Assembly: GCA_964016885.1 (NCBI GenBank) | Contig: OZ024754.1 | Coordinates: 27,218,001 to 27,282,000 of the forward strand | Length of the DNA stretch: 64,000 nucleotides | DNA from: Eledone cirrhosa | Lineage: Eukaryota | Reading direction: 5' to 3' | Shown: one piece after another, positions 1,810 through 60,363 of the stretch | Numbering within the stretch: position 1 is the stretch's first letter | How the letters are laid out: every line of letters begins with the position of its first letter | Made by a program: the position numbers and the translations under genes | Notes under the pieces: generated by a model | Told to the model about the DNA's origin: nothing | The model's input: the letters and a program-made list of their open reading frames with translations, nothing else | Database searches by the model: none

Positions 1810-2020
1810 TTAATAAAAGGAATTCCAACTTTGTCTGATATAATCGTTTTATTTACAATCCTTTAAAATTATAATGATATTATAATGAAATAGTATGGTA
1901 GAATATTAAATGCTAAATGTTAATATTCTACCATACTATTTCATTATAATATCATTATAATTTTAAAGGATTGTAAATAAAATGAGTAAATTAGACAAAG
2001 CTGGAATTCCTTTTATTAAT
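1810..2020. repeat. AT-rich hairpin, MITE-like or fold-back
   Basis: Perfect 63-bp arms 1847-1909 and 1920-1982 with a 10-nt loop; imperfect outer arms ttaataaaaggaattcc/ggaattccttttattaa. Confidence 0.85.
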
Positions 2021-2062
2021 ATACACAATCATACACACCCGTGTATATTTGTATGTATATAT

Positions 2063-3557: not shown

Positions 3558-6500
3558 GGGGCCCTTTCTGCCCGTGTGTTTGTTTGTTTATGTGTGTCCG
3601 TATACAGCGTGGTGATAATGCCACACAAGGGCCAAGTGGGATGGCGGATCCACAGATGGCTATGTAAACATACATTCGCCAATCCTCGATAAGAGTGTTT
3701 AAATATCGAACATAAACAGTTCGAATAACGGTGAAATGGAGACTAGAACGTCATGTGACAGACTCTCACCCAACAGGTGCCCCCTGGCTCAGCAGCAGGA
3801 ACCTGATTGTCAACGAAATACTGCTGATGTTGGAGGAAGAAGAAGAAGGAAAGGGGCCAGAACCAACTGGACGAAAGAATTGAATAGAACTGTTATGCAA
3901 TGCTACCTGAAAAGTAACCCCAAGGAGAGGGGCTACAGGAGACGGATGCATAACATCTGGAACGAGATTGGTTTATTTAAATTAGATGAACAAAAATTGG
4001 CCGGGCAGGCTCGGGTAATAAGAACCAATGGGTGGATAAGCGAGCTGGAACTGGAGGAACTGAGCAGAGAAGTATGCCAGACAAGCGAGCCGGCGGGAAA
4101 TGAAGGTGAGGAGGTCCTGAGAGCGGAGGAACCACCCGAAGCAGACAATGATCTGAATACTGAGATAAATAATACCTGGAACAGAGATACGGCCACTGAG
4201 GAGATGAATGCTGACGGGCTAGGACAAGATTCGGTTGACATCCTAAATTTAGTGGTAGATGAGTTGAACAATGATAGTGGGAGACCTATGAACCTAAGAT
4301 TTGTAGACAGGAAAAAGTTAAAAGAAACAACAGCTAAGGTAAACAAAGTCATCCCATACCTTGAGGCGAGGAGTCTCCACCAGTGCAACAATATCCTCAA
4401 AGCAACAGCAAATACAGTGAGGAAACTACTTGGTATAAAAGCGAGAGGAAACAACAGACAAGAAAGAGCAGAGCCGTGGTGGAAGAAGCGACTGAGTGGG
4501 CAAATCGGGGAAATGAGAAATGACATAGGAAAGCTTGAGTCACTACTGAATGGGACACTAAAAAACATAGGCACTAAAAATAGACTGGATATAAAATACA
4601 AAACTAGGAGTAAAAAGCTAAATATTATCATAGAGGAATTGAAGCAACGCATTGTAGCAAAGAGTGCCAAAATCAGGCGATACGAGAACAGAGTCAGTCA
4701 GTATAAACAGAACCGCATGTTCGACAACAACCAGAAGATGCTGTTTGGACAGCTTGAGGGGAAAGAAAGAGGCACCGACTTGATCCCTGGGGCGGAACAA
4801 GCTAAAACATTCTGGAGAGGAATATGGGAGCAGGATGTTAGACACAATGCCCAGGCAGGGTGGATTGAGACAGTACAGAGGGAGATCGGTGAGCAGGCAC
4901 AGCAACAGACTGATTTGAGTATCACAGTTGAAACTCTTAAGGGGCAAGCCAAAAAACTAACCAACTGGAAATCACCAGGCCCAGATGGTGTGCAGGGGTA
5001 TTGGATTAAACATTTAACATCCCTCCACCCGAAGCTGACGGCCATGTTCAATGACTGCTTGGTGTCGGGTGAGGTGCCAGAGTGGTTGACAAAAGGTACC
5101 ACAGTTCTGATAATGAAAGACCGAATCAAGGGTAATGATGTTACCAACTATAGACCTATCACATGTCTGCCCGTAATGTGGAAACTGTTGACGAGCATTG
5201 TGTCTGAGGAAATCTACCATCACCTCCACACAAACAACTTGTTGCCGGACGAACAGAAAGGATGCCGAAAGAAGTCACGTGGTACAAAGGACCAGTTGCT
5301 TATTGATAAGATGGTAATGGGGAATTGCAGGAGGAGACACACTGATCTTGCCATGGGATGGATAGACTACAGAAAGGCATTTGACATGGTGCCTCATTCC
5401 TGGATCACCAAAAGCCTGGAGATCTTCAGGGTGGCAGATAACATCAGACAGTTGCTGGGCAGGAGTATGGGGTCCTGGGAGACAGAGTTGACATCAACTG
5501 GAGTATCCTTGGGAAGCGTGAAGATCAAGAGAGGTATCTTCCAGGGAGATAGCCTGTCCCCTCTGTTGTTTGTCCTTGCCCTGATGCCCTTGACCATTAT
5601 GCTGCGAAAAGTGAGAGCAGGATACAAGTTGGGAAGGGGAGAGCTTACCATCAATCACCTCCTCTTCATGGACGATCTTAAGCTCTTCGGGAAAAGTGAG
5701 AAGGAGTTGGATGTGCTTGTTGACACTGTCCGTATTTTCAGCAGTGATATATGTATGCAGTTTGGTATTGGTAAATGTGGAGTCATTGTGATGAGGAGGG
5801 GTAGGTTGAGCAGAAGTAACGGGATCCAGATACCAACAGGTGAGATGATAAAGGAAATTGACTCTGAGGAAGGATACAAGTATTTGGGCGTTCTGGAGGC
5901 TGATGGCATAAAGAACAAAAAAATGAAGGAATTGTTAAGAACTGAATACATTCGGAGAGTAAGGAGCGTATTGAAGTCACATCTGAACAGCAGAAATGCC
6001 ATAAGCGCAGTAAATTCCCGAGCTGTGTCTATTATTAGGTACAGTGCGGGAATTCTGAGATGGAATGTTGCTGAACAAAAAGAAATGGATAGGAAGACTA
6101 GGAAGCTATTGACTATCTACAACATGTTCCACAAGAGGAGTGATGTCGATAGACTCTACCTAAGGAGATCTGAGGGTGGAAGAGGTCTTATCAGCATAGA
6201 GGACTGTGTTCAGATGGAGAAAAACAACCTATACAAATACGTGACCTATAGTAAGGAGCCAATGCTCAGAGCTGTACTGAAGGAGGGGACAGTAGGCCAG
6301 GGGATACCCAAGGAGGAAATAACATCAAGGAGGAAGAGCAGCCTTAAGGGAAAATCCCTTCATAGTACCTTCTTTGAGAAAACTGAATTTAGAGATCCAC
6401 AGACATGGAACTGGTTGAGAAGAGGAGACCTCAAAAAGGCTACAGAAGGAATGCTAATGGCTGCGCAGGAGCAGGCCCTCAAAACGAAGTGGTTGAAGCA

Positions 6501-7190
6501 CCATATCTACAAGGAGGAGGCTAGCCCACTGTGCAGGATCTGTGGAGAGAGAGAGGAGACTGTGGCTCACATTGTGTCCGAGTGTAAACACCTAGCCCAG
6601 ACCCACTATAAGGGCTGGAGACACGATGTGATGGGCAGGGTGATCCACTGGCACCTGTGCAAAGTAAACAATCTACCACATTCTGAGAAATGGTATGAGC
6701 ATAGGCCAGAGGCGGTGATGGAGAACAGTCAGGTGAAGGTGCTGTGGGATTTTAGGATACAGACGGACAAAAAACTGGAACACAATAGACCTGACCTGGT
6801 GGTTGTGGACAAAGAAAAAAGATCGTGCCTGATTGTGGATGTGGCCTGCCCGTTCGACACGAGAGTGCAAGAGAAGGAGAGGGAGAAAATTAACCGATAC
6901 CAGGACCTAAAGTGGGAGGTGAAAAGGATTTGGAACTGCCATGAAGTCAAAGTGATCCCGATTGTCATAGGCGCACTGGGGACTATCTCCAAAGGTTTCC
7001 AGGGATGGTTAAAGAAAATCGGCCCCTTCACGCTTTTTGGAACGCTTCAAAAGGCATGCTTGCTTGGAACAGCAAGAACCCTCCGATACGTCCTGAATAT
7101 CTGAGGCTGCAGGTAGTGGCTTGATATTCAATCCAACGGACTTTCCAGTTAACCAACATCAATGACTGAGATTCAAGGAATAACAATAAC

Positions 7191-7227: not shown

Positions 7228-8146
7228 TCCGAGGAGGAAATAACATCAAGGAGAAAGAGCAGCCTTCAGGAAAAATCCCTTCATAGTACCTTCTTTGAGA
7301 AAACTGAATTCAGAGATCCACAGACATGGAACTGGTTGAAAAGAGGAGACCTTAAAAAAGGCTACAGAAGAAATGTTAATGGCTGCGCAGGAGCAGGCCC
7401 TCAAAACGAAGTGGTTGAAACACCATATTTACAAGGAGGAGGCTAGCCCACTGTGCAGGATCTGTGGAGAGAGAGAGGAGACTGTGGCTCACATTGTATC
7501 CGAGTGTAAACACCTAGCCCAGACTCACTATAAGGGCTGGAGACATGATGTGATGGGCAGGTTGATCCACTGGCACCTATGCAAAGTAAACAATCTAACA
7601 CATTCTGAGAAGTGGTATGAGCATAAGCCAGAGTCGGTGATAGAAAACGGTCAGGTGAAGGTGCTGTGGGATTTTAGGATACAGACGGACAAGAAACTGG
7701 AACACAATAGACCTGACCTGGTGGTTGTGGCCAAAGAAAAAAGATCGTGCCTGATTGGGGATGTAGCCTGCCCATTCGACACGAGAGTGCAAGAGAAGGA
7801 GAGGGAGAAAATTAACCGATACCAGGACTTAAAGTGGGAGGTAAAAAGGATTTGGAACTGCCATGAAGTCAAAGTGGTTCCGATTGTCATAGGCGCACTA
7901 GGTACTTTCTCAAAGAGTTTCCACGGATGGTTAAAGAAAATTAGTCCAGCCCCGCTTTTTGGAAGACTTCAAAAGGCATGCTTGCTGGGAACAGCAAGAA
8001 CCCTCCGATACGTCCTGAATATCTGAGGCTGCAGGTAGCGGCTTGATATTCATTTCAACAAACTTTCCAGTTAAATAACATCAATGACTGAGACTCAAAC
8101 AATAATAATAATAATAATAATAATCATAATAATAATAATAATAATA
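7228..8146 (+). mobile_element. 5'-truncated second copy of the same R4/Dong element
   Basis: Colinear with 6311-7180 with scattered substitutions; same 3' UTR; flanked on both sides by (AAT)n. Confidence 0.95.
7231..8026 (+). pseudogene. Truncated, frameshifted C-terminal part (zinc knuckle + RLE) of the R4/Dong ORF
   Basis: ORFs 7162-7446 and 7373-8026 match the C-terminus of 3736-7104; frameshift in the A-run at ~7354-7359. Confidence 0.9.
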
Positions 8147-10139: not shown

Positions 10140-10181
10140 TTGGTGCGTTATCGTCCATCTGGTTCCTTACCACACCTCCTT

Positions 10182-10188
<7 letters not shown>
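10140..10188 (+). mobile_element. Family X tail fragment
   Basis: tggtgcgttatcgtccatctggttccttaccacacctccttc matches the tail of the 17985, 34163 and 59724 copies; ends in (TA)n. Confidence 0.7.
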
Positions 10189-13918: not shown

Positions 13919-14039
13919 TATATATATGTGTGCATGTATGTATGTATATACATACTACTGTACATCTGTATACATATATGTATGTACGTATACATACTTA
14001 TATTTATATATATATATATATACATAGATACTTAATATA

Positions 14040-14280
14040 GAAATGGCTTCTACCCGGACTAGAACTGTTTAATTCGGGAGGGCAATATGGTGGTATTTAT
14101 ACATTAGGAGTGCCTCTCAGTTTGTCTGTAGGTACTTAGCTTGAATTTTTTTCTGCCTTTGTTTCTCTAAATATAGTTTTTAAAGAATAGAAGCCATTTC
14201 ACTATTAAATACCTATACTCTGTTATGTATTGAGTACCTTACTTACTGTGGTTACCCCCGATTGAACCCGGGATTAACAC
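14040..14280. mobile_element. PLE-type terminus, family Y (diverged, inverted 5' part)
   Basis: gaaatggcttcta/tagaagccatttc inverted; ggactagaactgttt and gtattgagtaccttacttactgtggttacc shared with 60093-60272. Confidence 0.7.
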
Positions 14281-17390: not shown

Positions 17391-17392
<2 letters not shown>

Positions 17393-17521
17393 ACGAAGGA
17401 GGTGTGGTAAGAGGAACCAGATGGTCCATAACGCACCAGAGTACTCAATACTTAGGGTAGTAGGAAATAGGGTAATAGGAAAATGTTTGACCCCGACGGC
17501 AGAGCTCAAGCCATTTCGACG
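17391..17521 (-). mobile_element. Family X copy without hairpin
   Basis: taacgaagga...ccataacgcaccagagtactcaatacttagggtag...ccccgacggcagagctcaagccatttcgacg. Confidence 0.85.
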
Positions 17522-17525
17522 CAAT

Positions 17526-17752
17526 AAAAGCGCTACCTAAGGTTTCAAGGTACATTATTGATTATATCTCCAGAATGTAAGAGAGATCAAAATTGTGACT
17601 TAATTTTCAGCCGCTTATATGAGTTTTATAAGTAATTTCGTGTAAACTTATAAACACGAATAAGCGCCTGATGATTAGGTCGCTATTTCGAACCCTTGTA
17701 CATTCTGGAGATATGGTCAATATTGGGCCTTGAAACCTTAGGTAACGCTTTT
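17526..17752. mobile_element. Imperfect ~225-bp palindrome, MITE-like
   Basis: aaaagcgctacctaaggtttcaagg...atatctccagaatgta / tacattctggagatat...ccttgaaaccttaggtaacgctttt. Confidence 0.75.
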
Positions 17753-17911
17753 CTTCCGTATATTAACATAGATAAATAATATATTTCAGCTCTCTTCCCG
17801 ATTGAGCAATGTTTTCCTTTTCCATACGACTGGTATTGCTACTCAATCACACACACACACACGTATTTATCTTACCAATGAAAATAGTGAACTATAAATA
17901 CACGAATTACT

Positions 17912-17984
<73 letters not shown>

Positions 17985-17988
<4 letters not shown>

Positions 17989-18190
17989 AGTAAGTAAGAC
18001 CCCGACGGCTGAGCTCAAGCCGTTTCGACGGCTAATTCTGTACTTCTAAGAGTACAGAATTAGCCGTCGAAACGGCTTGAGCTCAGCCGTCGGGGTCTTA
18101 CTTACTCCTATTACCCACTCTACTACCCTAAGTATTGAGTACTTTGGTGCGTTATGGTCCAGTTGGTTCCTTAACACTTTTCCTTCGCTA
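17985..18190 (+). mobile_element. Family X hairpin element (perfect 60-bp arms plus ~80-bp tail) in (TA)n
   Basis: 17985-18044 is the exact reverse complement of 18051-18110; contains hammerhead 3' half GAAAcggct-tgagctc-agccgTC/ggggtc. Confidence 0.9.
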
Positions 18191-18385
18191 TATATATATA
18201 TATATATATATATATAGCGAAGGAAAAGTGTATATATGTATATATATCTATGTATATGTATATATATACGTATATATGTATGAATATATATATATATATA
18301 TATATTCATACATATATACGTATATATATACATATACATAGATATATATACATATACATACTTATACATATAAACATATATATAC

Positions 18386-25782: not shown

Positions 25783-25880
25783 ATATATACTTAAAAATAA
25801 CCATATATACATAAATCCATATATATATATATATATGGATATATGGATTTATGTATATATGGTTATTTTTAAGTATATAT
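25783..25880. repeat. AT-rich palindrome centred on a TA tract
   Basis: acttaaaaataaccatatatacataaatccat / atggatttatgtatatatggttatttttaagt. Confidence 0.85.
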
Positions 25881-31424: not shown

Positions 31425-32337
31425 CCATACAATCTACAGATTAAAGACCATATCCCTAAAATATTATTTGCTTTCCTAGAGAAAAACCTCCCACCAAACC
31501 ATAAATACCATCAAATTTTTAATAGATCTACTGTCAAATTTTCCTACTCCACTACCAAGAATATACAACAGAATAAAAGTGCTTACAACACATATAAGTG
31601 TAAAAAACCCCATAAATATACCACCAACACATCAAACCAACCATAATAATACTAAAATAAACTGAAACAAACCACCTTCTTCTTCACCTATAATAGGTCC
31701 CGTAAACTCCACACCAATTTTGACTAATAATCTCCAAAACAAACAGAACTCTACCAGCTCCACATCCCCTAAACTATCACCCACCAACAACCTGTCTAAC
31801 CATAATAGTCTAATAACAACCCATTCTAAACCATACATTAATGAAATTAGTAACACTAATACCACTATAGATAACACATTTAACTCTCCTGACACAATAT
31901 TTACGAATGGTTGTAACTGTAGAATCAAAAGAAATTGCCCATTAAGGGGAAATTGTCTTATTAATAACATAGTCTATAAATGTGTAATTAGAACTAAGGA
32001 CTCCACTCAATCCTATATAGGAGCTACGTCTAACCAATTTAAAGTAAGATTTAATACCCACAAACATAGTTTTAAAAATGCCGCATTAGCTAATACAACC
32101 TCCTTGGCTGAAGCAATTAATAATTATAGAAAGAGGGATATTCATTAAAACATGACCGGCAGCGTGCTCAAAAGGGCCACCCCTTATCAAAATAGCAGAT
32201 ATGAGTGTAGGTTATGCTCCCAAGAACTATCTGAAATCATGAAATATAATGATATCCTATTAAATAAGCGAGAGGAATTAATTATATCATGCAATCATAG
32301 AATTACAAAAACCTTCAAATATTATAAACTTAATTAG
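31425..32337 (+). pseudogene. PLE C-terminal region with GIY-YIG endonuclease (frameshift ~31640, stop at 32146-32148)
   Basis: HKYHQIFNRSTVKFSYS; CNCRIKRNCPLRGNC; IVYKC...YIGATSNQFKVRFNTHKHSF; CRLCSQE...LNKREE...CNH. Confidence 0.85.
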
Positions 32338-32372: not shown

Positions 32373-32555
32373 GATTGGCAGTATCGGTAGAGGGTAGGAC
32401 GCCATGCTTTGACGCATAGAGTTACGGCCCTTGCCATTCTGAGTTCAAATCTCGCTGAGCTTAACTATGCCTTTCATCTTTACGGGGTCGATAAAATAAA
32501 GTACCAGTAATACACTAGGTAATTGCTGGCCTTGTGCCAAAAGTAGAAACAATTA
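32373..32555 (+). mobile_element. SINE family A inserted in the PLE 3' region
   Basis: Aligns to family A. Confidence 0.9.
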
Positions 32556-33275
32556 GGATAAATTAAAACAATTTTTTAAAATTTAGTTAACCTATAATTA
32601 GAAATTTACTACAGAGAATTTCATAATTTTATTTCACTCTTACACCTCACTTTACCTAAAGTTATCTTTAACCTCACTACTTCTTTTAGCCGCATTCCCT
32701 ATTTATCACATTTAATACCTAAGATTATTAAATATAATTAATATCTTTAATATTATGGATGTTTAGATAGATACACTGCTTTCTATAAAATGTTATCTAT
32801 TTCAGTTTTCCTATATATTTTTTTTTATTTTTTAATTTTTAAATTTTTTTTATTTTTTTACTTCTTTATTTATCACATTCATAAGAATTACTATAATTTT
32901 AACTCTGTAAGTATACTTATCAATTAATTTAATTTCCTTTTCTGTATCTAGGTTCCTTGAAATTTAAATAAGATTAGTATTTCTCACTAATTGTTTTCCC
33001 CTTCGCTTTTAACAGCATTTTTTAATAACATCAAATTTTTTGGGACTCCTTCACTATTTCCTTGATTTGACCTCATTTTAACCCCTATCTTTCTCTTCCC
33101 CATTGTATTCTTTTCATTCAAAGCATAAATTTACATTCCTCCACTCCTAGCATCAAATTCTACTACTGTTATTCTATCAACTTGACCTCTAACTCTTTTC
33201 TATTGGTCAATTCAAAACCTGTTCCCAAAGGGACCTTTTATATTAATACTTTATTTCTTTCATTAAACATACTTC

Positions 33276-33680: not shown

Positions 33681-34162
33681 TACGGGTGAAAGATCATCTT
33701 TCTTATACTGTTCCAAATATATGTTAGACTATTTTACTCAGACTTTGCCTATTTTGGGTAAATATCAATTTTTACATAATGATTTATATATATTCTATAC
33801 AATCATATTGTTACTATTATTTGACATATACTGAGGTGAATAGAATTCTGTAACGCAAAATGTTAAAGAATACTCATGTGATATCTTATGAGATAGACAA
33901 CGCCAATTTCCAAAAATATTTATTAGGTTGTGTGAAAGGAAGGAAAACACGATTTCTTTAGATATAAGCGTGTTACACTGTACATGGTTGTAACTGAAGA
34001 CAATTTAAATGACTTTCTGTCTGTAGAAATAAATATATTTATATATATATATAAATATATTTATTTCTACAGGTGAAAGCAATAAGGGTGAAAGCAGCGA
34101 TTCTTTGCTTAAACTTTAATCTGTTATTTTAATAAATAAATAAATATATATATATATATATA

Positions 34163-34358
34163 TAGGAACGAGTAGGACCCGACAGCTGAGCTCAAGCCGT
34201 TTCCACGGCTAATTCTGTACTTAGAATTAGCCATCGAAACGGCTTGAGCTCAGCCGTCGGGGTCCTACTCGTTCCTATTACCCACTCTACTACCCTAAGT
34301 ATTGAGTACTTTGGTGCGTTATGGTCCACCTGGTTCCTTACCACATTTCCTTCGTTAT
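34163..34358 (+). mobile_element. Family X hairpin element
   Basis: Hairpin 34163-34277 with few mismatches, plus tail ending ttcgttata; (TA)n on both sides. Confidence 0.9.
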
Positions 34359-36975: not shown

Positions 36976-37220
36976 TAGGAAAATGCATAACCCCGACGGC
37001 AGAGTTCCAGCCGTTTCAACGGACTAAATTTGAATTTTTTAGCGTAGTAATAAATATTTATTACTACGCTAAAAAAAAAAAAAATTCTAATTTAGTCCTG
37101 AAATACCGGTCGAAACGGCTGGAGCTCTGCCGTTCGCGTTATACATTTTCCTATTACCCACTCTACGACACTAAGTATTGAGTACTATGGTATGTTATGG
37201 TCCATCTGTTTCCTTACCAC
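36976..37220 (+). mobile_element. Family X hairpin element (diverged, expanded centre)
   Basis: taggaaaatg...ccgtttc / gaaacgg...cattttccta; central agcgtagtaataaatatttattactacgct palindrome. Confidence 0.85.
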
Positions 37221-37241
37221 AATTATATATATATATATTAT

Positions 37242-45366: not shown

Positions 45367-46132
45367 AGAAGACTAAATAACTTATGTACGTTAAGAGAGA
45401 GAACAAATGGTTATAACGTGCCAGGCGGATCGAATAGAACGGAAGGTTACTAGAAAAAATAGCAGCCAGAACCATTCAATATATTAAAAGCTCTACAAAA
45501 GCAAAGGAACCTGTTTATCAAAAGTATATATTGAGTTAAAAACTCACTATAGTCCCCTATAATTAAGGTTCTGGCTGCTATTTTTCCTAGTAACCCTACG
45601 TTTTATTCGATCCGCCCGACACGCTATAACCATGTGCTCTCTCTCTCTCTTAACGCACACATGTTATTTAGTCTTCTATGAAACATAGTAGTGAAGTAAA
45701 TATGTGGGTATCCGTTGAAAAGCACCACACCAATAATTCTCTTCACTGAATTTTACGAAAAAGTTCTACCCGTAAACTGTCCGGATACATAATAGTTGTC
45801 ATGGTAGGTTCGTATATCTCAATCTATATTTTTGATTGAGTTCTGTGAACCATACTATTGCAGTCAATATTTTCTTCACCTTGGGGGTTTCTGTCCCTTC
45901 TGATTTCACACATATAGTTATATATCCGTGTTCGTCTCACCTTACTGTATTATAAGGCACGGAAATATATTTTCCTTGAGCTATTTTGATTATAGGGGAG
46001 TGCTGTGAGTTTTTGACTCTAAATATACTTTTGATAAACAGGCTCCTTTGCTTTTGTAGGGCTTTTAATATATCGAATGGTTCTGGCTGCTATTTTTTCT
46101 AGTAACCTTACGTTCTATTCGATCCTCCCGGC
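45367..46132. repeat. Nested inverted repeats (fold-back structure)
   Basis: 45367-45473 inverted at 45567-45677; 45421-45562 inverted at 45989-46132. Confidence 0.85.
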
Positions 46133-48776: not shown

Positions 48777-48988
48777 TATTTGTAAAGCCAAAACAATGCA
48801 GGTATGGATATAGAATATAAATGCAAATGCTAAGGATATTTAAGTAAATTTAAGGTAAAAGACTAATTGTCAACAATATCTTTTGCATTTGCATTTATAT
48901 TCTATATACATACCTGCATTGTTTTGGCTTTACAAATACAAACGTTTATACCTCATTACACAATGCTTCAAGTGAACTATAACTTCCT

Positions 48989-48992
<4 letters not shown>
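48777..48992 (+). mobile_element. Inverted-arm element with tail (related to family Z)
   Basis: ~62-bp arms 48777-48840 and 48875-48938; tail cacaatgcttcaag..aact shared with 10096-10115; TA flanks. Confidence 0.65.
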
Positions 48993-53687: not shown

Positions 53688-54432
53688 GGTTTCTGATTTA
53701 GACACAATGCCAACAATTTTTGGAGAAGCGAAAGTCGATTAAATCGGCCTCAGTGAATTACTGGTACTTTATTTTATCGATCCCGTAAGGATGAAAGCCA
53801 AAGCTAACCTCGGCAGTATTTGAACACAGATCGTAAAGGGACGTAACACTATGCAATAAAGCATGTTGTCCCACGTTCTACCGAAGCTGCCAATTCTTTG
53901 CCGTAGCTTATTAAATACTATTAATAATTATTTCTACTTTTGGCACAAGGCCAGCAATTATCCCAGTGCATTACTGGTACTTTATTTTATCGAGCCCCTA
54001 AGGATGAAAGGCAAAATTAACCTCGATGGGATTTGGACTCAGGCCATAAATGGCCGTAACTCTTTGCTGCAAAGCATGGCGTCAGACGCTCTACCGATGC
54101 TGTCAATCCACCGCTATAAATACTATTAATAATTGTTTCTATTTTAGGCACAAGACCAGCAATAACCCAGTACATTACTGGTACTTTATTTTATCGACCC
54201 CGTAAGGATGAAAGGCAAAATTAACCTATAAATACTTATAGTTTCTAATTTGGACACAAAGCCAACAATTTAGGTGTAGGAAGACGATTATATCAACCTA
54301 GTACTTTACTGGTATTTTACTTGATTGACCTCAGAAGAATGAAAGTCAAAGTTGACCTCGACGGGATTTGAAACCGGAAAATACCGTAATGTATTGTGTC
54401 TGACACTCTACTGATTCTGTCAATCCACCACC
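53688..54432 (-). mobile_element. Head-to-tail array of four SINE A copies
   Basis: Units start at ~53688, 53925, 54128 and 54240; linker taaatactattaataatt is repeated. Confidence 0.85.
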
Positions 54433-55544: not shown

Positions 55545-55737
55545 TAAGGGTGTGGTAAAATACCAGGTGGGCCATAACTCACCAGAGTGCTCGATACTTG
55601 GAGTAGTAGAGTGGGTAATATGAAAAGATTCAGGACCCCGACGGCTGAGCTCGGGCCGTTTGGACAGCTAGATCCGAACTCTAGTTCGGACCTAGCTGTC
55701 GATACGGCCCGAGCTCAGCCGTCGGAGTCCAGAATCT

Positions 55738-55744
<7 letters not shown>
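55545..55744 (-). mobile_element. Family X hairpin element (diverged)
   Basis: Hairpin 55619-55744 with private variants gaaaagattc and ctcgggccg present in both arms. Confidence 0.88.
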
Positions 55745-55786
<42 letters not shown>

Positions 55787-55789
<3 letters not shown>

Positions 55790-55926
55790 CGAAGGAGTTG
55801 TGGTAAGGAACCAGATGGACCATAACCCACCAGAGTACTCAATACTTAGGGTAGTAGAGTGGGTAATAGGAAAATGTATGTCCCCGACGGCAGAGCTCAA
55901 GCCGTTTCGACGGCTATTTCTGGACT
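55787..55926 (-). mobile_element. Family X copy without second arm
   Basis: Ends at ggctatttctggac-(TA)n, i.e. at the hairpin centre position. Confidence 0.88.
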
Positions 55927-56579: not shown

Positions 56580-56739
56580 GTGTGTGTGTGTATATAATTG
56601 TAAAAAAGACAAAACACAGTAGAAAATGCTGAGATATTCTCATAGAATAATAGCCAAACATTTATTTATGAAAAAGGAATTTATCGTACCGGTTTCAGAC
56701 ACGTGGGGTGCCTCATGCTACGGAAGTGTATAATAAAAT

Positions 56740-57085
56740 TTATAATGGAGTTGCAGTTTCGTCTGTGGTGGATGCATTTGAATGGGGTTCGTATTTAGTG
56801 ATAAATTGTGTTTTTTTTTTAATGCGCTGATTGTAGGAAGCCTTGTCTTTAAATTTGTAGAGAAGGAAATTTCTGAAATTGGGTTGTTCATTAGAGGCGT
56901 AGGTGGAAATGTGTTCACTCAGTGCTATTTTTTCTGTATTCCCGTATTTTAATTTGGTCATACGTTGATAAAGAGTGTTTTTAGTCTGTCCTATGAGCAA
57001 GTTAACACATGTATCAGGTTTTCTGATGCGTATGTGAAATTGTATTTGAAGTGGTCTTCCGCATTTTTTTAGTGTTGGTTTCGTT
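56740..57085 (-). pseudogene. Second PLE GIY-YIG endonuclease relic
   Basis: CVNLLIGQTKNTLYQRM...ALSEHI...QFITKYEPHSN; degenerate hammerhead just downstream (56681-56722). Confidence 0.65.
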
Positions 57086-57111
57086 GTATATACATATATA
57101 TACATATATAC

Positions 57112-57150
<39 letters not shown>

Positions 57151-57168
57151 CGTATATTTATATATATA

Positions 57169-57210
<42 letters not shown>

Positions 57211-57236
57211 TATAGATATATAATTATATATATATA

Positions 57237-57605
<369 letters not shown>

Positions 57606-58149: not shown

Positions 58150-58374
58150 AGAATGTTTGACTAGTTTTGGCAACAACATTATGCTTTTTCTCTTAAATTC
58201 TCTCAATCTGTCTCCTCATCTCTTTCTCAATTATACAGGCGGACATATACATTCTTTTACTCTCTGTATATATCCATATCTATCTCTACATATATACACA
58301 CAGTGAGAGAGACCAAAAGAAAGAGTGTGTATGTGTGTGCTGGGGCACACACGCAAGCTCAGTCTCTCTCGCTT

Positions 58375-58495
<121 letters not shown>

Positions 58496-59348: not shown

Positions 59349-59723
59349 TAAGTTGAGACAGTAAACAAGAAAACAAAAAAAACAACGTGGCAGCGAAGAG
59401 GCAGTAGACATGTTAATATTAGTTTCATATATACATATATATCTAAATTACGTCTCCCGTGTATGTGGTTTTATAAGCAGATTGAGGCAGATACAAATCT
59501 GTTTACTAAGAGAGGTTCTAAGATGTGATACCAAAGTTACAAGCTCTGATTTCTGTTCGTTTTCAACTCATACATATATATGAGAATGCACCGCAGCCAT
59601 ATATGGGTTGAACATCCTTCCGGCGAAACACGTGTCCTCGAATATGGTTTGCTAATTTGTGGAACTAATGCTCTGTCTCTGTCTGTCTGTCTCTCTCTAT
59701 CCCTGTGTATATATATATATATA

Positions 59724-59915
59724 TAACGAAGGAAATGTGGTAAGGAACCAGGTGGACCATAACGCACCAAAGTACTCAATACTTGAGGTAGTAGAGTGGG
59801 TAATAGGAACCAGTAAGACCCCGACAGCTAAGCTCAAGCCGTTTCGACGGCTAATTCTGGACTCAGAATTAGCCGTCGAAACGGCTTGAGCTTAGCTGTC
59901 GGGGTCTTACTGGTT

Positions 59916-59919
<4 letters not shown>
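59724..59919 (-). mobile_element. Family X hairpin element (perfect 56-bp arms)
   Basis: 59804-59859 is the exact reverse complement of 59864-59919; (TA)n on both sides. Confidence 0.9.
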
Positions 59920-59994
<75 letters not shown>

Positions 59995-59997
59995 CTG

Positions 59998-60092
<95 letters not shown>

Positions 60093-60095
<3 letters not shown>

Positions 60096-60268
60096 TTATT
60101 CCGGGTTGAGTCGGAGGTAACCACAGTAAGTAAGGTACTCAATACATAGCAGAGTATAACTGTTTTAATATAGATGAGATTCTACAGGACTAGAACTGTT
60201 TCATTCTTTAGAAAGAGATTCCTGATGATTTCTAAAGAATGAAACAGTTCTAGTCCTGTAGAATCTCA

Positions 60269-60272
<4 letters not shown>
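60093..60272. mobile_element. Family Y PLE-type terminus: head-to-head inverted copies plus tail
   Basis: Perfect arms 60170-60214 and 60229-60273; tail homologous to 14200-14280; (TA)n on both sides. Confidence 0.85.
60215..60267 (+). ncRNA. Type I hammerhead ribozyme
   Basis: gagattc CTGATGA tttc-taaa-gaat GAAA cag-ttctagtc-ctg TA gaatctc; 7-bp stem I; U-U at the base of stem II. Confidence 0.75.

Positions 60273-60363
<91 letters not shown>

What the first reader, a model, noticed from the sequence alone, without database searches (positions are those of the whole stretch)
17985..18190. Family X: a (TA)n-targeted ~200-bp element whose hammerhead region forms a self-matched hairpin
Seen: eight copies (10140, 17391, 17985, 34163, 36976, 55545, 55787, 59724), all next to (TA)n. 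Five carry a hairpin with the same outer boundary (TAGGA/TATGA...TCCTA/TCATA) and a centre at the same place. Each copy's private variants occur in both arms: gtaagtaag in 17985, aacgagtagg in 34163, aaaatg in 36976, gaaaagattc and ctcgggccg in 55619, acagctaag in 59804. The sense arm reads GAAA-cggct-tgagctc-agccg-TC/ggggtc, a hammerhead stem III with a GUC site and stem I 3' strand. The fold-back centre lies in what would be stem II, and no CTGANGA half is present. Known: PLE pseudo-LTRs carry hammerheads and often have an inverted upstream copy lacking a 3' tail. Inference: fold-back priming at stem II during integration, or arm homogenisation, creates a reproducible non-autonomous hairpin retroelement.
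Basis: partly seen in the sequence, partly recalled or inferred. Interest (0 to 1): 0.8.

Follow-up and report, generated by a model that had tools for sequence, protein, structure and literature searches.

The report
Penelope-style hairpin mini-retroelement in TA repeats
A very common 140-200-base repeat sits in TA microsatellites, often with its first 60 bases duplicated as a self-matched hairpin; it is likely a protein-less passenger of Penelope-like retrotransposons, and its many copies would allow a test of how those elements build their inverted ends.

Summary
There are eight copies, 15 of 16 ends touch (TA)n, and five are hairpins whose arms match each other better than other copies (permutation 20/20000). 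Short reads independent of the assembly show thousands of arms ending at the same outer point into (TA)n, and a fixed inner end. [quoted passage not shown] I read X as a short non-autonomous PLE passenger that lacks half its ribozyme. The hairpin is likely built anew at insertion, by reverse transcription primed from both cut target strands at two fixed start sites. No autonomous partner or CTGANGA half was found, so PLE membership is not shown. Verdict: new variant of a known kind, interest 0.45.

The parts
17915..17984 (.). (TA)n target, left flank
17985..18044 (-). inverted arm without tail; outer end at the fixed TCCTA point
   Evidence: 60/60 identical to the sense arm; 1677+2095 and 1579+1767 reads run from an arm into (TA)n here
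18045..18050 (.). 6-nt hairpin loop (head-to-head junction)
18051..18110 (+). sense arm; family 5' boundary near 18051
   Evidence: solo copy 55787 starts at the same point; upstream loose ends are heterogeneous (agreement 0.45-0.47 in X1)
18069..18097 (+). 3' half of a type I hammerhead-like motif: GAAAC, stem III with palindromic GAGCTC loop, GTC, putative stem I 3' strand; no CTGANGA
   Evidence: no Rfam hit at gathering score
18111..18190 (+). 80-nt one-sided tail with GTATTGAGTAC motif (18132-18142), ending in (TA)n
   Evidence: 6010 and 7144 reads run from the tail end into (TA)n
18191..18231 (.). (TA)n right flank followed by a short inverted copy of the tail end (a TA-centred palindrome)
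34163..34357 (+). X hairpin copy; loop in antisense orientation
36976..37226 (+). old X hairpin copy; both arms extend about 39 nt into non-family DNA, zero-loop centre
55545..55745 (-). X hairpin copy of a divergent subfamily
55787..55926 (-). X copy without inverted arm (140-nt unit)
59724..59919 (-). X hairpin copy, arms 56/56 identical
17391..17521 (-). 5'-truncated X copy joined to the inverted arm of hairpin Z
10140..10182 (+). X tail fragment between TA runs
60090..60275 (-). sister family Y: same hairpin-plus-tail layout; complete type I hammerhead in its inverted arm (core at 60222 on +)
   Evidence: only full descriptor hit in the window, 0 in 30 shuffles; shares an 11-mer with X, reached in 10 of 1000 null sequences

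Best explanation
Family X is a roughly 140-base repeat in TA microsatellites, likely a non-autonomous passenger of a Penelope-like retrotransposon (PLE), whose hairpin is likely built anew at each insertion by reverse transcription primed from both cut strands of the target. Shown: TA flanks, a fixed outer end, a near-fixed inner end, self-matched arms, a one-sided 80-nt tail and half a hammerhead motif. Inferred steps: (1) a PLE GIY-YIG/RT protein cuts both strands of (TA)n; (2) one strand primes at the tail end (18190), the other at the internal start site (18110), the two-start-site rule described for the anole PLE; (3) both cDNAs copy same-sequence RNA towards its 5' end near 18051; (4) they are joined head to head with small, variable loops. 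If the first cDNA stops early, a whole inverted arm is joined to a truncated sense part; if the second is lost, a solo copy results. Arms then decay independently. The ribozyme would be inactive, since CTGANGA is absent.
For: Layout equals the published PLE signature: inverted 5'-truncated copy with a tail at one end (PMC8557442 section 6; PMC3846280). Purified anole PLE protein cleaves and extends both strands of AT-rich DNA and starts at two internal RNA sites that delimit the tail; ribozyme activity was not needed in vitro (PMC11167929). Fixed outer end in three sequence variants and thousands of reads. 11 of 13 opposite-strand joint types link the inner end (18049-18064) to 18088-18139; in 3 of the 11 the short side equals exactly the arm length to 18111, and 3 of the 11 also occur in contigs of X1. 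Loops of 34163 and Y are antisense, so the inverted cDNA went further 5' than the sense one. Y at 14035-14280 has an inverted arm, filler and a truncated sense part. Y has a complete hammerhead with similar spacing: cleavage site to shared motif 37 nt against 40, motif to end 56 against 59. A PLE-like GIY-YIG remnant lies at 31666-32148 (weak Pfam hit, E 0.0085).
Against: No autonomous partner, ORF or CTGANGA half was found for X. Stem III shows no covariation in 7 copies, and a half motif arises by chance dozens of times in the window. The X-Y link is modest (10/1000; alignments reached by 6, 156 and 258 of 2000 shuffles). The tail is 80 nt, not 30-40. The model needs two template molecules or re-use of one. 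The zero-loop centre of 36976 fits fold-back as well. Asymmetric deletion of a full hairpin, or library chimeras, could also give the truncated joints. In the anole protein the start site had no homology to the target, whereas both X ends show TA microhomology. Only 16 reads and one contig span a hairpin centre, probably because an AATT library cut at 18058 and hairpin bias remove them.
Confidence: 0.55

Rival explanations
1. Same PLE origin, but one cDNA folds back near the 5' end of the unit, primes on itself, copies the arm, and the endonuclease resolves the hairpin at the internal TA-rich site.
For: Centres cluster within a few bases in 4 of 5 copies; the zero-loop palindrome of 36976 includes non-family DNA; the loop of 17985 resembles the tip of a 34163-type hairpin read backwards, as if templates came from hairpin parents; the tail has been ascribed to endonuclease resolution (PMC8557442).
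Against: Antisense loops in 34163 and Y, and 11 joint types with truncated sense parts, need extra deletions or loop inversions. No stem II can be assigned.
Confidence: 0.25
2. X copies are dispersed, truncated offspring of a tandem or circular retrozyme master that still has the whole hammerhead; reverse transcription stops at the catalytic core.
For: Retrozyme monomers are dispersed in genomes and related to PLE pLTRs (10.64898/2026.07.22.740005). Three of four short centres have GA directly before the sense start, like the end of CTGANGA. This is compatible with the best explanation and differs only in the source RNA.
Against: No tandem X units in the window; no displayed loose end shows a shared upstream core (20 of 444 rows shown).
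Confidence: 0.1
3. A DNA-level element (MITE, or Helentron-type rolling-circle element) that targets (TA)n and carries an internal palindrome; the hammerhead likeness is chance.
For: No ORF, small size, fixed ends, TA flanks; the half motif has no covariation. Palindromic 200-bp DNA repeats exist in frog (PMC5625713).
Against: No terminal inverted repeat between the two ends; a short internal/3' look-alike does not co-vary across subfamilies; solo, tail-only and truncated-sense forms are typical of reverse transcription; Y has a full hammerhead in the same layout.
Confidence: 0.06
4. Hairpins arise or are homogenised after insertion by host DNA processes (template switching, gene conversion), or are assembly artefacts.
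For: TA-centred palindromes are common in this window, including one at 18174-18231.
Against: X centres are not TA runs; the outer end is fixed across subfamilies; short reads and contigs show the same ends and a centre joint; older copies keep arm differences.
Confidence: 0.04

Closest known systems
Penelope/Poseidon and Neptune PLE insertions with inverted pLTR and tail (D. virilis Penelope, A. vaga Pen2a, anole PAc)
   Same: Inverted copy lacking the tail at the 5' side, tail at one end, hammerhead motif upstream of the two end points, AT-rich target (PMC3846280, PMC8557442, PMC11167929).
   Different: No ORF; whole insert about 200 bp; tail 80 nt; only the 3' half of the motif; 5' end near-fixed rather than randomly truncated; arms abut as a near-perfect hairpin.
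Naiad PLEs
   Same: (TA)n preference, tandem/inverted structures, reported from Octopus spp. (PMC8557442).
   Different: Naiads lack canonical hammerheads and are 3.4-4.4 kb with an ORF.
Non-LTR retrozymes
   Same: Non-coding, pLTR-related, type I hammerhead, dispersed monomers.
   Different: Defined by tandem units with complete ribozymes; X is dispersed, inverted and has half a motif.
Non-autonomous PLEs (MRC1 of Chlamydomonas; short non-autonomous Penelope of Heliconius telesiphe)
   Same: Short, non-coding, high copy, PLE-dependent (passages).
   Different: MRC1 is described with direct pLTRs and head-to-tail arrays; the Heliconius passage gives no structure. No self-matched hairpin form is described in the passages seen.
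Dual minimal hammerheads on opposite strands 100-700 bp apart in Schistosoma mansoni
   Same: Short inverted pairs of PLE hammerheads scattered without ORF (PMC4209133).
   Different: Those have complete cores; in X the arms abut and the core is missing.

Membership tests
Penelope-like element | RT plus GIY-YIG ORF in, or linked to, the family | tested here: not met
   No ORF in any of 8 copies; profile of the one open frame gave 3 repeat-driven chance hits; no linked locus in viral or metagenome contigs. Host genome not held, so a partner elsewhere is untested.
Penelope-like element | complete type I hammerhead in the pLTR | tested here: not met
   3' half only; the descriptor finds a full motif only in sister family Y; Rfam nothing at gathering score.
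Penelope-like element | inverted 5' copy that lacks the tail | tested here: met
   5 of 8 window copies; fixed arm end in reads.
Penelope-like element | 30-40 bp tail at one end | tested here: inconclusive
   One-sided tail present but 80 nt long.
Penelope-like element | AT-rich or microsatellite target | tested here: met
   15 of 16 ends against 9% background.
Penelope-like element | target-site duplication | not testable with these tools
   Flanks are (TA)n; no empty alleles available.
Non-LTR retrozyme | tandem units each with a complete hammerhead | tested here: not met
   No tandem array of X and no complete core.
MITE | terminal inverted repeats joining the two ends | tested here: not met
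   The inverted repeat is 5' end against the middle; the 3' end has no partner.
Helentron non-autonomous element (features recalled) | co-varying subterminal inverted repeats and a 3' stem-loop | tested here: not met
   The short internal and 3' look-alikes vary independently across copies (by eye).
tRNA-derived SINE | tRNA-like head with Pol III boxes | tested here: inconclusive
   ARAGORN finds 0 genes in the window; it would miss a decayed head.

The most novel reading that the evidence does not exclude
X is a self-renewing hairpin retroelement: hairpin copies are themselves the templates, the hairpin tip sets the 5' end of the next generation, and a PLE protein rebuilds a perfect 55-60 bp palindrome at every insertion. 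A ribozyme-dead mini-element would then have seeded this genome with many thousands of perfect double-stranded-RNA hairpins, a large source of ADAR and small-RNA substrates.
Probability: 0.25. Interest if true: 0.7.

Novelty: new variant of a known kind. Interest (0 to 1): 0.45.

Why it matters
How PLEs build tandem and inverted ends is called undefined in PMC8557442, and the in vitro work (PMC11167929) stops before second-strand synthesis and joining. A short family with thousands of copies, each readable end to end in one read, gives a natural record of integration products: loop orientation and truncation of each arm separate two-sided priming from fold-back. Such elements have no ORF and no full ribozyme, so they are probably mislabelled as MITE, SINE or unknown in repeat libraries (inference). 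If transcribed, the hairpins would be strong editing substrates, as shown for a palindromic frog repeat; octopus has an exceptional load of predicted dsRNA (PMC5625713). That the host is an octopod rests on recalled repeat motifs, not on a call.

Tried and rejected
No host genome is held. Tail pattern: 0 hits in viral and metagenome contigs. Stem III pattern: 0 viral hits, 1 metagenome hit that is a chance match in GC-rich DNA. Rfam: 0 at gathering score; at E up to 10 on 59700-60300, mostly generic hairpin (microRNA) models and a weak Hammerhead_3 match on Y, 21.9 bits against 48.5. An open frame across the sense unit: profile search gave 3 repetitive unrelated proteins, rejected. GIY-YIG remnant at 31900-32145: no homolog at E 0.001 among longer proteins; remnant at 56743-57171: no Pfam hit. 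LINE protein search did not name the host. Covariation for stem III and for the alternative 5' hairpin: none in 7 rows, low power. First arm comparison used a cut-short 36976 arm and was replaced. Earlier scan notes: nothing in 3 look-ups. No RNA holder listed. Copy number cannot be read: the library cuts inside the element and contig depths are summed. Literature searches showed no description of this family or of a self-matched hairpin mini-PLE; Dfam and Repbase could not be searched. Supplementary figures of PMC11167929 are pictures and its GenBank file is unreadable here; they and bioRxiv supplements may bear on the comparison.

Full report
Observation. The copy at 17985-18190 is a 60-bp perfect inverted repeat with a 6-nt loop, followed by an 80-nt tail, between (TA)n runs. 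blastn finds eight copies in the window: five hairpins, two with a sense arm only and one tail fragment. 15 of 16 ends lie within about 20 nt of (TA)3, against 9% of random starts. Arms within a copy are 60/60, 51/54, 40/51, 56/61 and 56/56 identical; between copies the mean is 0.76 (40 pairs, maximum 0.93); 20 of 20000 random re-pairings reach the observed mean. So the self-match is real. It is clearest in 4 of 5 copies; the old copy 36976 shares only two window-private letters between its arms. The variants are better called subfamily variants: some recur in other copies or in many reads.

Independent reads. I laid four runs on the sense arm plus tail, 18045-18188. Two raw RAD runs gave 22737 of 12.47 million and 23410 of 12.79 million reads, contigs of X1 gave 13214 of 16.3 million, and X5 gave 2. 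The family is very abundant, but no copy number follows, since the library cuts at AATT (18058) inside it. Arms running straight into (TA)n at the outer point number 1677+2095 and 1579+1767 reads, against 6010 and 7144 for tail ends, so tail-less arms are about half as common as tails in the cut subfamily. These reads do not show orientation; in the window all five tail-less arms are inverted arms. Depth falls away left of about 18051, partly because the reference loop is copy-specific, but the solo copy 55787 starts at the same point and upstream loose ends are heterogeneous (agreement 0.45-0.71). Only 20 of 444 loose-end rows were shown, so rare longer forms are not excluded. Of 13 opposite-strand joint types, one is a hairpin centre (8+8 reads, one contig), one is tail against outer arm, and 11 join the inner end (18049-18064) to 18088-18139. 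In three of these the short side is exactly the arm length to 18111, which means a whole inverted arm joined to a truncated sense part.

The ribozyme half. The sense arm has GAAAC, a 4-5 bp stem with a palindromic GAGCTC loop, GTC and a G-rich strand, but no CTGANGA anywhere. Such halves occur by chance dozens of times in the window and there is no covariation. The bases before GAAA can pair with the stem's 5' strand instead, so a stem II cannot be assigned. The support comes from context. At 60090-60275 a second family (Y) has the same layout and the only complete type I hammerhead that my descriptor finds (0 in 30 shuffles). It shares the 11-mer GTATTGAGTAC with X (10 of 1000 null sequences reach 11) at similar distance from the cleavage site and the end; whole alignments of X and Y are weak. 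A third hairpin (Z, 17519-17850) has a near-complete hammerhead in both arms, read by eye. Two more hairpins with one-sided tails in (TA)n show no motif (1810-2056, 48780-48992). A GIY-YIG remnant of PLE type lies at 31666-32148 (the PLE assignment is from recalled motifs).

What is known. PLE insertions often carry an inverted 5'-truncated copy and a 30-40 bp tail at one end, and Naiad PLEs prefer (TA)n (PMC8557442; passages and section 6 seen). A. vaga Pen2a has an inverted pLTR abutting the direct one with a tail on one side (PMC3846280; parts 1-3 of 5). Metazoan PLE hammerheads have palindromic loop 3 and occur as opposite-strand pairs 100-700 bp apart (PMC4209133; parts 1-2 of 4). The purified anole PLE protein cuts and extends both strands of AT-rich DNA, starts at two internal RNA sites whose interval is the tail, and does not need ribozyme activity (PMC11167929; parts 1-2 of 4; supplements mostly unreadable). 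Retrozymes are tandem pLTR derivatives (10.64898/2026.07.22.740005; part 1 of 5 and passages). Also seen: PMC13282606 (part 1 of 3 and passages; no mention of hammerhead, palindrome or hairpin in its main text), PMC6765202, PMC2377424, 10.1101/596502 and PMC5625713 (passages).

Mechanism. The best reading (0.55) is two-sided target-primed reverse transcription. One cut strand primes at the tail end, the other at the internal site, both copy same-sequence RNA towards its 5' end, and the products are joined head to head. This gives the fixed outer end, matched arms, variable loops, antisense loops (34163, Y) and truncated-sense forms, including Y at 14035-14280. Fold-back of one cDNA with endonuclease resolution (0.25) explains clustered centres and the zero-loop centre of 36976, but needs extra events for the antisense loops and truncated forms. 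A retrozyme master as RNA source (0.10) is compatible with either. A DNA element (0.06) and later homogenisation or artefact (0.04) fit poorly; older copies keep 3, 5 and 11 arm substitutions. All enzymatic steps are inferred. Unexplained: what fixes the 5' end, why the tail is 80 nt, and why GAG-containing look-alike motifs stand at the 5' end, in loop III and in the tail.

Membership and novelty. X works like a PLE terminal structure, but two defining features were tested and not met (ORF, complete hammerhead) and no partner could be sought in the host genome. I therefore do not file it as a PLE member. The architecture is known; a very abundant 140-200 bp form with a near-fixed 5' end, half a ribozyme and abutting arms was not seen in eight literature searches, though repeat databases were out of reach. 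Verdict: new variant of a known kind, interest 0.45, chiefly because it makes the origin of PLE inverted ends testable by counting.

Noticed in passing
window 60090-60275 and 14035-14280: Family Y: hairpin plus 78-nt tail in (TA)n; the inverted arm holds a complete type I hammerhead. The second copy has an inverted arm, about 115 nt of other DNA and a truncated sense part.
   Followed up: partly
window 17519-17850: Hairpin Z with about 115-bp arms, each with a near-complete hammerhead and a long stem II region, tail ending in (CA)n; its outer end is joined to X copy 17391 at a 3-nt match.
   Followed up: partly
window 1810-2056 and 48780-48992: Two AT-rich hairpins with one-sided tails (about 35 and 57 nt) in (TA)n and no hammerhead motif seen; possibly Naiad-type PLE ends.
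   Followed up: no
window 45367-46132: Nested inverted and repeated segments (arms 45420-45566 and 45986-46132, plus a hairpin 45367-45677), resembling a complex PLE insertion.
   Followed up: no
window 31450-32330: Broken ORF end with cysteine motifs and a GIY-YIG-like domain (Pfam E 0.0085), resembling a Neptune-type PLE endonuclease (clade recalled).
   Followed up: partly
window 56590-57070 (minus strand): Short decayed frame resembling a PLE endonuclease end (no Pfam hit), followed by a degenerate minimal hammerhead and a tail into (CA)n/(TA)n.
   Followed up: partly
window 3703-7104 and 7340-8026: Open 1133-aa non-LTR retrotransposon frame (RVT_1, zf-RVT) followed by (AAT)n, and a second 3' copy; resembles Dong/R4 (recalled).
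   Followed up: partly
window 18174-18231, 18233-18356, 25783-25880, 34021-34072, 58363-58466: Many palindromes centred on (TA)n runs, including flanking unique sequence; either frequent fold-back at TA runs or assembly artefacts.
   Followed up: no
window 32400-32560, 53757-54227, 57230-57345: Copies of another abundant repeat that I recall as an octopus SINE-like family; the basis, with Dong/R4 and TA content, for guessing an octopod host.
   Followed up: no
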